Below are positions 19,789 through 21,802 of a stretch of DNA of 41,969 nucleotides, in pieces. Source of the stretch: Enterobacteria phage O276; the sequence record NC_049951.1. One strand, 5' to 3'. The translations under genes and the position numbers were made by a program. The notes beneath the pieces are model-generated. The model did no database searches. It worked only from the letters and a program-made list of their open reading frames with translations, and had not been told where the DNA came from. The stretch's first letter is position 1; the number at the start of each line of letters is the position of its first letter.

Positions 19789-20742
19789 ATAGGCATTTGT
19801 TATTTTGGCTCTGTCAGCTGCATAACGCCAAAAAATATATTTATCTGCTTGATCTTCAAATGTTGTATTGATTAAATCAATTGGATGGAATTGTTTATCA
19901 TAAAAAATTAATGTTTGAATGTGATAACCGTCCTTTAAAAAAGTCGTTTCTGCAAGCTTGGCTGTATAGTCAACTAACTCTTCTGTCGAAGTGATATTTT
20001 TAGGCTTATCTACCAGTTTTAGACGCTCTTTAATATCTTCAGGAATTATTTTATTGTCATATTGTATCATGCTAAGTGACAATTTGCTTATGGAGTAATC
20101 TTTTAATTTTAAATAAGTTATTCTCCTGGCTTCATCAAATAAAGAGTCGAATGATGTTGGCGAAATCACATCGTCACCCATTGGATTGTTTATTTGTATG
20201 CCAAGAGAGTTACAGCAGTTATACATTCTGCCATAGATTATAGCTAAGGCATGTAATAATTCGTAATCTTTTAGCGTATTAGCGACCCATCGTCTTTCTG
20301 ATTTAATAATAGATGATTCAGTTAAATATGAAGGTAATTTCTTTTGTGCAAGTCTGACTAACTTTTTTATACCAATGTTTAACATACTTTCATTTGTAAT
20401 AAACTCAATGTCATTTTCTTCAATGTAAGATGAAATAAGAGTAGCCTTTGCCTCGCTATACATTTCTAAATCGCCTTGTTTTTCTATCGTATTGCGAGAA
20501 TTTTTAGCCCAAGCCATTAATGGATCATTTTTCCATTTTTCAATAACATTATTGTTATACCAAATGTCATATCCTATAATCTGGTTTTTGTTTTTTTGAA
20601 TAATAAATGTTACTGTTCTTGCGGTTTGGAGGAATTGATTCAAATTCAAGCGAAATAATTCAGGGTCAAAATATGTATCAATGCAGCATTTGAGCAAGTG
20701 CGATAAATCTTTAAGTCTTCTTTCCCATGGTTTTTTAGTCAT
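19768..20742 (-). CDS. ea47: Ea47-like protein, 3'-truncated fusion ORF (track ORF 19768..20790; probable native start ATG at 20742)
   Basis: AT-rich minus-strand ORF; spacing between the AAGCTT at 19954 and the ATG at 20742 (788 bp) equals that between lambda HindIII 23130 and the ea47 start 23918 (recalled); last codons and stop lie in antisense stf sequence. Confidence 0.5.
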   Translation of the reverse strand: MTKKPWERRLKDLSHLLKCCIDTYFDPELFRLNLNQFLQTARTVTFIIQKNKNQIIGYDIWYNNNVIEKWKNDPLMAWAKNSRNTIEKQGDLEMYSEAKATLISSYIEENDIEFITNESMLNIGIKKLVRLAQKKLPSYLTESSIIKSERRWVANTLKDYELLHALAIIYGRMYNCCNSLGIQINNPMGDDVISPTSFDSLFDEARRITYLKLKDYSISKLSLSMIQYDNKIIPEDIKERLKLVDKPKNITSTEELVDYTAKLAETTFLKDGYHIQTLIFYDKQFHPIDLINTTFEDQADKYIFWRYAADRAKITNAYGFIWIL

Positions 20743-21802
20743 AAAACAATTTAGTGAATTTATCATCGTCCACTTGAATCTGTGGTTCATTACGTCTTAA
20801 CTCTTCATATTTAGAAATGAGGCTGATGAGTTCCATATTTGAAAAGTTTTCATCACTACTTAGTTTTTTGATAGCTTCAAGCCAGAGTTGTCTTTTTCTA
20901 TCTACTCTCATACAACCAATAAATGCTGAAATGAATTCTAAGCGGAGATCGCCTAGTGATTTTAAACTATTGCTGGCAGCATTCTTGAGTCCAATATAAA
21001 AGTATTGTGTACCTTTTGCTGGGTCAGGTTGTTCTTTAGGAGGAGTAAAAGGATCAAATGCACTAAACGAAACTGAAACAAGCGATCGAAAATATCCCTT
21101 TGGGATTCTTGACTCGATAAGTCTATTATTTTCAGAGAAAAAATATTCATTGTTTTCTGGGTTGGTGATTGCACCAATCATTCCATTCAAAATTGTTGTT
21201 TTACCACACCCATTCCGCCCGATAAAAGCATGAATGTTCGTGCTGGGCATAGAATTAACCGTCACCTCAAAAGGTATAGTTAAATCACTGAATCCGGGAG
21301 CACTTTTTCTATTAAATGAAAAGTGGAAATCTGACAATTCTGGCAAACCATTTAACACACGTGCGAACTGTCCATGAATTTCTGAAAGAGTTACCCCTCT
21401 AAGTAATGAGGTGTTAAGGACGCTTTCATTTTCAATGTCGGCTAATCGATTTGGCCATACTACTAAATCCTGAATAGCTTTAAGAAGGTTATGTTTAAAA
21501 CCATCGCTTAATTTGCTGAGATTAACATAGTAGTCAATGCTTTCACCTAAGGAAAAAAACATTTCAGGGAGTTGACTGAATTTTTTATCTATTAATGAAT
21601 AAGTGCTTACTTCTTCTTTTTGACCTACAAAACCAATTTTAACATTTCCGATATCGCATTTTTCACCATGCTCATCAAAGACAGTAAGATAAAACATTGT
21701 AACAAAGGAATAGTCATTCCAACCATCTGCTCGTAGGAATGCCTTATTTTTTTCTACTGCAGGAATATACCCGCCTCTTTCAATAACACTAAACTCCAAC
21801 AT
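20735..21802 (-). CDS. ea59: Ea59-like P-loop ATPase, truncated after codon 355 (no Walker B / C-terminal half)
   Basis: Walker A GRNGCGKTT at 21194..21220; start and the EcoRI site at 20933 colinear with lambda ea59 (recalled); lambda Ea59 is 525 aa. Confidence 0.7.
   Translation of the reverse strand: MLEFSVIERGGYIPAVEKNKAFLRADGWNDYSFVTMFYLTVFDEHGEKCDIGNVKIGFVGQKEEVSTYSLIDKKFSQLPEMFFSLGESIDYYVNLSKLSDGFKHNLLKAIQDLVVWPNRLADIENESVLNTSLLRGVTLSEIHGQFARVLNGLPELSDFHFSFNRKSAPGFSDLTIPFEVTVNSMPSTNIHAFIGRNGCGKTTILNGMIGAITNPENNEYFFSENNRLIESRIPKGYFRSLVSVSFSAFDPFTPPKEQPDPAKGTQYFYIGLKNAASNSLKSLGDLRLEFISAFIGCMRVDRKRQLWLEAIKKLSSDENFSNMELISLISKYEELRRNEPQIQVDDDKFTKLFYD

What the first reader, a model, noticed from the sequence alone, without database searches (positions are those of the whole stretch)
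20735..21802. Ea59 remnant is an ABC/OLD-type P-loop ATPase cut off before its Walker B half
The 355-aa ORF carries a canonical Walker A, GRNGCGKTT, at residues 195-203 (21194..21220) after an N-terminal domain of about 190 aa, then stops. No hhhhDE Walker B, signature or H-loop follows. If this is ea59, about 170 C-terminal residues that should carry those motifs are missing, so the ATPase is probably inactive. In reference lambda this ATPase gene is immediately followed by ea31; ATPase-plus-partner gene pairs are a common architecture of phage-defence modules, so the intact pair may be an unrecognised exclusion module that this genome has lost.
Basis: partly seen in the sequence, partly recalled or inferred. 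Interest (0 to 1): 0.55.

Follow-up and report, generated by a model that had tools for sequence, protein, structure and literature searches.

The report
Deletion stump of lambda Ea59 ATPase
This reading frame is the first 355 codons of phage lambda's ea59 gene, left by the classical laboratory deletion b515 in the published hybrid phage O276.

Summary
The window is the complete 41,969-bp genome of the laboratory hybrid phage O276 (HK022 immunity region in a lambda b515 b519 background). The b515 deletion (1,995 bp) cut it, by recombination between two 10-bp repeats (GTCATAAAAC). The deletion removed the ABC signature (MSSGH 364-368), Walker B (LVLFDE 387-392), the H-loop (ATHSP 423-427) and all of ea31. 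The stop codon comes from codons 2-3 of ea47, which is itself truncated by b519.

Full-length Ea59 matches PADLOC models PDC-M01A (4e-201) and PtuA (5e-184), and its model's best PDB matches are PtuA chains. Ea31 is a zinc-finger HNH protein that matches PDC-M01B (6e-113), and its only long structural matches are PtuB chains. Homologous pairs, with the same 4-nt gene overlap, lie beside Lamassu and DUF4297-HerA systems.

The defence-module reading is therefore well supported by homology. It is not unrecognised: defence databases model the pair, and a 1994 paper links an ea59-like gene to phage resistance. It remains untested for lambda itself. The stump is almost certainly inert. Interest is low.

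The parts
20735..21802 (-). ea59 stump: native codons 1-355 of lambda ea59 plus a TAA stop supplied by ea47 sequence
   Evidence: 100% identical to Ea59 1-355; equals AXN57997.1 of phage O276
21194..21220 (-). Walker A / P-loop GRNGCGKTT (residues 195-203), the only ATPase motif retained
   Evidence: G195 R196 N197 G198 G200 K201 T202 are invariant in 52 homologues
21248..21802 (-). Family-specific N-terminal domain (residues 1-185) that precedes the ATPase core. It is beta-rich followed by helices, and its function is unknown.
   Evidence: AlphaFold model, block-mean pLDDT 75-94 over residues 1-180. 1,421 representative clusters carry it, always N-terminal and mostly in 500-545-aa proteins. 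No Pfam hit.
20738..20747 (.). b515 deletion junction: the single surviving copy of the 10-bp direct repeat GTCATAAAAC (lambda 23914-23923 and 25909-25918). The deletion removes 1,995 bp.
   Evidence: the size agrees with PMC6256539
19768..20742 (-). ea47 stump: the first 323 of 410 residues of Ea47 (with one F223L change), then one foreign residue and a stop. Its ATG lies inside the b515 junction and overlaps the ea59 stop (TATGACTAA).
   Evidence: equals AXN57996.1, O276_23
19775..19788 (.). b519 deletion junction (3,177 bp removed, lambda 19778..22954) at an imperfect 14-bp repeat ATCC[GG/AA]ATGAAGCC. It joins the 5' part of stf to the inside of ea47.

Best explanation
The ORF is a laboratory-made stump of lambda ea59.

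Shown:
- The window is phage O276, a hybrid built on a lambda b515 b519 parent.
- b515 arose by illegitimate recombination between two 10-bp direct repeats (GTCATAAAAC). One repeat covers the ea47 start codon and the other lies inside ea59 at codons 352-355.
- The 1,995-bp loss removes ea59 codons 356-525, all of ea31 and the ea31-ea47 spacer.
- Translation of the stump ends after native residue D355, at a TAA formed by ea47 codons 2-3.

Shown by homology: intact Ea59 is a PtuA-type ABC ATPase with an extra N-terminal domain of about 190 aa. Ea31 is a PtuB-type zinc-finger HNH nuclease translated from an overlapping ATGA junction.

Inferred from solved PtuAB complexes and mutant data:
- In intact lambda, Ea59 dimers or oligomers would hold Ea31 and gate its nuclease activity through ATP binding or hydrolysis.
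- Once triggered, the nuclease would cut nucleic acid (DNA or tRNA in characterised relatives), which stops phage growth.
- The O276 stump keeps only the N-terminal domain, Walker A and part of the helical insert.
- It cannot form the signature/Walker B/H-loop half of an ATP sandwich and has no nuclease partner, so the module is dead in this genome.
For: Identity and origin:
- BLAST against NC_001416 shows the two deletions, the G insertion at 14267 and the total length of 41,969 bp. All match the O276 announcement, PMC6256539.
- The exact stump protein is on record under O276.

Motifs:
- Walker A only lies in residues 1-355.
- MSSGH 364-368, LVLFDE 387-392 and ATHSP 423-427 lie in the deleted part, and their residues are invariant in 52 homologues.

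Ea59 family placement:
- PADLOC: PDC-M01A 3.9e-201 and PtuA PDLC00282 5.4e-184, both full length.
- Pfam: AAA_21 1.3e-16 and AAA_15 8e-13, carried mainly by the deleted half. The stump alone falls below every Pfam cut-off.
- Foldseek with the Ea59 model: the top 34 PDB hits are PtuA chains of retron I-A complexes, followed by OLD, Septu PtuA 8eea/8ee4 and AriA.

Ea31 family placement:
- PADLOC: PDC-M01B 5.8e-113. The HNH core matches PtuB model PDLC00342 at 7.3e-9.
- C108-x2-C111, D121-H122, N138 and C143-x2-C146-N147 are invariant.
- Foldseek gives a single credible hit, PtuB 9n69_F, probability 0.98.

Genomic context:
- Homologous pairs with the same 4-nt overlap lie next to Lamassu in an E. 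coli integrase island.
- Another pair lies next to DUF4297-HerA in a Vibrio island.
- A third stands as an isolated two-gene insert in E. mendocina.

Loss of function:
- Walker A/B mutants of PtuA and HNH mutants of PtuB abolish Septu immunity (PMC13096335).
- PtuA D395A or PtuB H57A abolish tRNA-Tyr cleavage by Retron-Eco7 (PMC12673091).
Against: - No experiment shows that lambda Ea59-Ea31 excludes any phage. No paper in the searchable library holds both 'ea59' and 'Septu', and recent papers treat the genes only as dispensable cargo sites.
- Ea59 falls far below the NCBIfam PtuA equivalog cut-off (48 against 500 bits). It is therefore a separate clade, not an orthologue of retron PtuA.
- No sigma-70-like site lies directly upstream of ea59. 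In a prophage the b region is separated from pL (gene order; lambda biology from my own knowledge), so expression in lysogens is doubtful.
- That the stump is inert is inferred, not measured.
Confidence: 0.85

Rival explanations
1. Intact Ea59-Ea31 is a PtuAB-like nuclease that serves lambda's own lytic cycle, not a prophage-borne defence. It might act on host or competitor nucleic acids, or in processing of DNA intermediates, during early pL-driven expression. On this view O276 lost an accessory lytic function, not an exclusion function.
For: - ea59, ea31 and ea47 lie on the leftward strand beyond int and att. They can be reached from pL only on the circular or excised genome (my own knowledge of lambda transcription).
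- No promoter-like site lies directly upstream of ea59.
- Benchimol et al. 1982 described a lambda-specified endonuclease. PMC5241400 calls it single-stranded-DNA-dependent, and the title of Zhou et al. 1994 calls ea59 an endonuclease gene.
Against: - Deleting the genes has no effect on plaque formation (EOP near 1 in CRISPRi mapping; b515 and other deletions are viable).
- Homologous pairs sit in bacterial defence islands and as stand-alone chromosomal inserts, not specifically in phages.
- One homologue family carries the name 'phage Hau3 resistance protein'.
Confidence: 0.3
2. The 355-aa product keeps a function of its own. For example, its N-terminal domain plus P-loop might act as an ATP-binding sensor, a decoy or a dominant-negative partner for related cellular PtuA-like proteins.
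For: - The ORF is intact, has an AAGGG Shine-Dalgarno-like sequence 8 nt upstream of its ATG, and lies in the same leftward transcription unit as in lambda.
- The N-terminal domain is predicted to fold with confidence.
Against: - The cut falls inside the helical insert, between the two halves of the ABC core. All catalytic residues except Walker A are gone, and so is the nuclease partner.
- The junction was made by a random laboratory deletion selected for a shorter genome, not for function.
- The exact protein is seen on a single contig among 15 billion sequences.
Confidence: 0.04
3. The ORF is the ATP-binding subunit of an ABC transporter, as annotated in the O276 record ('putative transporter, ABC binding cassette-like').
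For: The record's name. Weak ABC_tran hit around the P-loop only (E = 1.7e-4, 22.6 bits against a cut-off of 25).
Against: - There is no permease or binding-protein gene nearby, and the ABC_tran match covers only 29 residues.
- Full-length relatives match PtuA/PDC-M01A end to end and pair with an HNH nuclease.
Confidence: 0.01

Closest known systems
Septu (PtuA ABC ATPase + PtuB HNH nuclease), for example E. coli Septu 8EEA/8EE7 and Septu EcB88
   Same: - Two overlapping genes in the order ATPase then HNH nuclease.
- The ATPase has Walker A, an ABC signature, Walker B and an H-loop.
- The partner is a zinc-finger HNH with His and Asn 16 residues apart (H122/N138 in Ea31, H75/N91 in EcB88 PtuB).
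- PADLOC PtuA model PDLC00282 matches Ea59 end to end.
   Different: - Ea59 carries about 150 extra N-terminal residues (its Walker A lysine is K201; the residue mutated in EcB88 is K43).
- Ea31 is 296 aa, against about 215-247 aa for PtuB.
- Sequence similarity of Ea31 to PtuB is confined to the HNH core.
- The lambda copy sits in a phage genome downstream of att.
- Anti-phage activity has not been shown for it.
PtuA/PtuB effectors of type I-A retrons (Retron-Eco7/Ec78, Retron-Eco4/Ec83)
   Same: They are the best sequence and structure matches in the PDB for both proteins. The Cys4 zinc finger flanks the catalytic His with the same C-to-H spacing (C46-H57 in PtuB, C111-H122 in Ea31).
   Different: - No reverse transcriptase or msDNA gene accompanies the pair in lambda or in the four homologous loci.
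- The NCBIfam PtuA equivalog score is 48 bits against a cut-off of 500.
PADLOC candidate system PDC-M01 (A + B)
   Same: Both proteins hit its models over their full length, at E = 3.9e-201 and 5.8e-113. This is the family to which the lambda pair belongs.
   Different: PDC-M01 is an unpublished candidate with no reported experiment. Its calls overlap Septu calls in other genomes (PMC11811056).
Streptomyces lividans 66 phage-resistance gene similar to lambda ea59 (Zhou, Deng, Hopwood, Kieser 1994, Mol Microbiol 12:789; known here from its title only). The NCBI name 'phage Hau3 resistance protein' carried by an Ea59 homologue presumably derives from it.
   Same: It is an ea59-like gene tied to phage resistance. 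The name is propagated to a 54%-identical, full-length homologue (P0082) that is followed by an Ea31 homologue.
   Different: The paper could not be read here, so its data, including whether a nuclease partner is needed, are unknown to me.
OLD / Gabija GajA / PARIS AriA-AriB (ABC ATPase with a Toprim nuclease)
   Same: The same ABC-ATPase class (AAA_15/AAA_21). OLD 6p74 and AriA appear among the sequence and fold matches.
   Different: The nuclease is a separate HNH protein, not a fused or partnered Toprim domain.

Membership tests
Septu / PtuAB-type module (intact lambda ea59-ea31) | PtuA: ABC-type ATPase with Walker A, signature, Walker B and H-loop | tested here: met
   GRNGCGKT 195-202, MSSGH 364-368, LVLFDE 387-392 and ATHSP 423-427, all invariant in 52 homologues. 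AAA_21 and AAA_15 score above the Pfam cut-offs.
Septu / PtuAB-type module (intact lambda ea59-ea31) | PtuA profile and fold match | tested here: met
   PADLOC PtuA PDLC00282 at 5.4e-184 over residues 4-522. The Foldseek top 34 PDB hits are PtuA chains, and Septu PtuA 8eea/8ee4 is also hit. The NCBIfam retron PtuA equivalog is far below its cut-off, so this is a distinct clade.
Septu / PtuAB-type module (intact lambda ea59-ea31) | PtuB: HNH nuclease with a zinc finger, encoded next to PtuA | tested here: met
Septu / PtuAB-type module (intact lambda ea59-ea31) | Two-gene operon, ATPase first, genes adjacent or overlapping | tested here: met
   The ea59 stop and ea31 start overlap by 4 nt (ATGA) in lambda, and the same holds in three distant loci.
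Septu / PtuAB-type module (intact lambda ea59-ea31) | PtuA and PtuB form a complex; protection against phages depends on the ATPase and HNH residues | not testable with these tools
   This needs co-purification and plaque assays. Only indirect support is available, from neighbouring Lamassu and DUF4297-HerA systems.
Septu / PtuAB-type module (the locus as present in this window) | Complete ATPase and a nuclease partner present | tested here: not met
   Only residues 1-355 of the ATPase remain, and ea31 is entirely within the 1,995-bp b515 deletion.
PADLOC candidate PDC-M01 | Both the A and B models matched by adjacent genes | tested here: met
   For lambda: 3.9e-201 and 5.8e-113. In the window only a partial A match survives (1.4e-108, profile positions 2-336 of 510).
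OLD family / Gabija GajA | Toprim nuclease domain fused to the ABC ATPase | tested here: not met
   No Toprim hit in Pfam, PADLOC or NCBIfam for Ea59. Its C-terminus after the H-loop is a short helical region.
PARIS (AriA/AriB) | Partner protein with a DUF4435/Toprim nuclease | tested here: not met
   The partner Ea31 is an HNH protein. AriA models hit only the shared ATPase core (2.1e-17, residues 361-430).
ABC transporter ATP-binding subunit (the annotation in the O276 record) | Full ABC_tran domain and cognate membrane components | tested here: not met
   ABC_tran scores below its cut-off and covers 29 residues. No permease gene is present in the window or in four homologous loci.

The most novel reading that the evidence does not exclude
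Wild-type lambda carries a live PtuAB (Septu-class) ATPase-HNH nuclease module of a distinct clade. The clade is marked by a family-specific N-terminal domain of about 190 aa, found in more than 1,400 sequence clusters. On this reading the 'novel endonuclease' purified from lambda-infected cells in 1982 would be the first PtuAB complex ever characterised biochemically. Because the genes lie downstream of att on the pL transcript, the module would be deployed during lytic growth or induction, not from the quiescent prophage. That would be a phage using an abortive-infection-type nuclease for its own competition with co-infecting elements. Most laboratory lambda derivatives (b2, b515, DE3, cloning vectors) would have lost it unnoticed.
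Probability: 0.35. Interest if true: 0.5.

Novelty: already known. Interest (0 to 1): 0.2.

Why it matters
It matters little for this window. The stump is a by-product of a deletion isolated in 1971 and sequenced in 2018, and it tells us nothing new about biology.

The useful by-product is a reminder. The lambda b-region genes ea59 and ea31 are routinely discarded as 'non-essential cargo space', yet they form a full-length member of a Septu-like ATPase/HNH family that defence databases already model. Nobody appears to have tested this pair in lambda itself.

Anyone who compares exclusion or host-killing phenotypes between lambda strains should know which ones lack the pair. These include O276, other b515 or b2 derivatives, and the DE3 prophage of BL21(DE3), which carries a different ea59 stump.

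Tried and rejected
- A natural pseudogene or a divergent lambdoid allele. Rejected: the DNA is identical to lambda up to a 10-bp repeat junction, and the genome is O276.
- ea31 as the gene downstream of the stump. Rejected: it is ea47, itself truncated by b519.
- Ea47 as a third component of the module. It has no PADLOC, Pfam or NCBIfam hit and is absent from four homologous loci. Rejected.
- An upstream gene as a conserved third component. The upstream ORFs in the E. coli and Vibrio loci are unrelated to each other, absent from lambda and absent in E. mendocina. Rejected.
- Membership of OLD, PARIS or the ABC transporters. Rejected (see the membership test).
- A promoter for ea59 in the 840 bp between its ATG and int. 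The scan found no more sites than in shuffled sequence and none directly upstream. Uninformative.
- Sequence-only searches of Ea31 against the PDB. These give only marginal HNH-core hits, so fold searches were needed.
- Literature. No paper holds both 'ea59' and 'Septu'. One search was badly framed and returned only generic defence reviews. Casjens & Hendrix 2015, Benchimol et al. 1982, Li et al. 2024 and Liu et al. 2013 are not held. What I say about the 1982 enzyme therefore rests on how PMC5241400 cites it and on the title of Zhou et al. 1994.
- The function of the N-terminal domain. There are no informative hits beyond its own family and a weak PDC-S34 match. Left open.
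Full report
**What the window is**

BLAST of the whole window against lambda NC_001416 gives collinear blocks:
- Window 1-19788 matches lambda 1-19787, with one extra G at 14267.
- Window 19775-20747 matches lambda 22951-23923.
- Window 20738-28863 matches lambda 25909-34034.
- Window 32059-41969 matches lambda 38592-48502.

The gap between the last two blocks is HK022 DNA (window 28752-32164 matches HK022 26489-29900). The length of 41,969 bp, the G insertion at 14267, two b-region deletions of 3,177 and 1,995 bp and the HK022 immunity region all match the genome announcement of the laboratory hybrid O276 (King & Perez 2018, PMC6256539). 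The two proteins flanking the junction are on record under that phage, as AXN57997.1 and AXN57996.1.

**The observation**

The ORF at 20735..21802 (-) exists. Its 355 residues are identical to Ea59 1-355. GRNGCGKTT is at residues 195-203, which is window 21194-21220. Nothing resembling a Walker B, an ABC signature or an H-loop follows.

**How the stump arose**

Lambda has the 10-mer GTCATAAAAC twice, at 23914-23923 and at 25909-25918. The first copy covers the ea47 start codon on the other strand. The second lies inside ea59, where it reads ...F-Y-D on the coding strand. The window has one copy, at 20738-20747.

The deletion between the repeats is b515. It removes ea59 codons 356-525, all of ea31 (lambda 24509-25399) and the spacer up to ea47. 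On the coding strand the junction reads TTT TAT GAC TAA. D355 is the last native residue, and the stop comes from ea47 codons 2-3 (ATG ACT AAA), so the stump's stop overlaps the ea47 ATG.

The gene after the stump is therefore ea47, not ea31. It too is truncated. b519 (lambda 19778-22954, junction at window 19775-19788 in an imperfect 14-bp repeat) removes its last 87 residues and fuses it to antisense stf sequence.

**What the intact gene is**

Full-length Ea59 carries these motifs:
- Walker A at 195-202
- an ABC signature, MSSGH, at 364-368
- Walker B, LVLFDE, at 387-392
- an H-loop, ATHSP, at 423-427

Their core residues are invariant in 52 homologues of 52-87% identity. Pfam AAA_21 (1.3e-16) and AAA_15 (8e-13) pass their cut-offs only with the C-terminal half present. 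The stump alone is below every cut-off.

In PADLOC-DB, Ea59 matches PDC-M01A (3.9e-201) and the Septu PtuA model PDLC00282 (5.4e-184) from end to end. The closest PDB sequences are PtuA of retrons Ec78/Eco7 and Ec83, then OLD and AriA. An AlphaFold model (mean pLDDT 80) has PtuA chains as its top 34 Foldseek hits, followed by OLD, Septu PtuA (8eea, 8ee4) and AriA.

Residues 1-185 form a separate, confidently predicted domain with no Pfam family. It occurs in 1,421 representative clusters, always at the N-terminus and mostly in proteins of 500-545 aa. It is therefore a hallmark of this clade, not a shuffled module.

**What the lost neighbour is**

Ea31 (296 aa) matches PDC-M01B at 5.8e-113, and PHROGs calls its family an HNH endonuclease. 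C108-x2-C111, D121-H122, N138 and C143-x2-C146-N147 are invariant. The 11-residue spacing from the second Cys to the His equals that of Retron-Eco7 PtuB (C46, H57). The 16-residue spacing from His to Asn equals that of Septu EcB88 PtuB (H75, N91).

The HNH core alone hits PADLOC PtuB model PDLC00342 at 7.3e-9. Sequence searches of the PDB are only marginal (PtuB at 0.029). The Ea31 model (pLDDT 84.5) gives clearer results:
- Foldseek returns one credible hit, PtuB 9n69_F (probability 0.98).

**Context of relatives**

Three homologues of Ea59 (54-65% identity, by the full alignment) were located on contigs. In each case a protein of 293-305 aa that is 48-63% identical to Ea31 follows, with the same 4-nt ATGA/GTGA overlap.
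- In E. coli the pair lies in an integrase/AlpA island next to a Lamassu system (LmuA 8.8e-21, LmuB 3.1e-66).
- In Vibrio parahaemolyticus it lies in an integrase island next to DUF4297-HerA (4.9e-38, 6.5e-169).
- In Ectopseudomonas mendocina it is a lone two-gene insert between housekeeping operons, and NCBI names the ATPase 'phage Hau3 resistance protein'.

That name presumably traces to Zhou et al. [quoted passage not shown] I could confirm the citation but could not read the paper. Ea47 and the upstream ORFs are not conserved with the pair. The lambda genes have 36-38% G+C against 50% for the genome, which is typical of acquired cargo.

**Mechanism**

The anatomy above is shown. The rest is inferred from solved PtuAB complexes. 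PtuA dimers bind PtuB through its C-terminal helices and control the HNH nuclease by ATP binding or hydrolysis. Characterised relatives cut dsDNA (Septu), ssDNA (Retron-Eco4) or tRNA-Tyr (Retron-Eco7, Septu EcB88).

The substrate of Ea59-Ea31 is unknown. The only biochemical hint is the lambda endonuclease of Benchimol et al. 1982, which a citing paper describes as single-stranded-DNA-dependent.

In relatives, Walker B or HNH point mutants already abolish activity. A stump without the signature, Walker B, H-loop and nuclease partner should therefore be inert.

**Doubts**

No experiment links lambda's pair to exclusion. No paper in the library holds both 'ea59' and 'Septu', and current work uses the genes only as disposable insertion sites.

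The genes lie beyond att on the leftward strand and have no promoter-like site directly upstream. Expression from a quiescent prophage is therefore doubtful. A role during lytic growth is a serious rival, to which I give about 0.3.

**Verdict**

- The molecular reading of the stump is right.
- The defence-module idea is well supported by homology and context.
- The pair is already modelled in defence databases, and phage resistance by an ea59-like gene was reported in 1994.
- The 'loss' is a laboratory deletion that has been published for this genome.

Novelty: already known. Interest: low (0.2). The only open and testable point is whether wild-type lambda's pair is active, and when it is expressed.

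Noticed in passing
window 27400-28750 and 32165-34300: The lambda-like DNA on both sides of the HK022 immunity insert is 100% identical to phage 21 (OL657228.1) but only about 98% identical to lambda. It covers the 3' end of bet, gam, kil, cIII and ea10 on the left, and O, P, ren and the 5' part of ninB on the right. O276 is therefore a three-parent mosaic, and its lambda parent was presumably an imm21-type hybrid. The announcement says all remaining genes come from lambda.
   Followed up: yes
window 28864-29920: An IS903 copy carried over from HK022. It is flanked by a 9-bp duplication (window 28855-28863 and 29921-29929, both matching lambda 34026-34034).
   Followed up: partly
window 20738-20742: The b515 junction places the new ea59 stop (TAA) over codons 2-3 of ea47 (TATGACTAA). 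The two stumps thus form an accidental overlapping stop/start pair, like a translationally coupled operon.
   Followed up: partly
window 19768-20742 (ea47 stump); lambda 22686-23918: Ea47 (410 aa, 31% G+C) has no hit in Pfam, NCBIfam or PADLOC, and only an 'unknown function' PHROG. It is not found next to Ea59/Ea31 homologues elsewhere. The O276 copy also has an F223L change (window 20076).
   Followed up: partly
E. coli BL21(DE3)-type genomes, e.g. NC_012947.1 2991815-2992684: The DE3 prophage keeps a different ea59 stump (lambda 26104-26973, the first 290 codons). One such genome annotates it as an 'ATP-binding cassette domain-containing protein'. Among 5,426 complete E. coli genomes, only 68 carry at least 80% of the lambda ea59-ea31 segment, all at 99% identity or more.
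   Followed up: partly
public records: MW057783.1; protein clusters of P0001 and P0121: A record named 'Campylobacter phage CJLB-4' is 100% identical to lambda over this region. Ea59 or Ea31 sequences in lambda's 90%-identity clusters, including full-identity Ea31, are deposited under Paenibacillus, Streptococcus pneumoniae, Enterococcus faecium, Listeria and Burkholderia. This looks like lambda control-DNA contamination of assemblies.
   Followed up: no
L002 326-5076 and L007 10506-13491: The neighbours of Ea59/Ea31 homologues are a Lamassu-like LmuA/LmuB set with CTD1/MComp1 domains (E. coli) and a DUF4297-HerA pair (Vibrio parahaemolyticus). Both sit in small integrase-bearing islands.
   Followed up: partly
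window 14267: A single extra G relative to the lambda reference, in the L-K intergenic region. The O276 authors also reported it.
   Followed up: no
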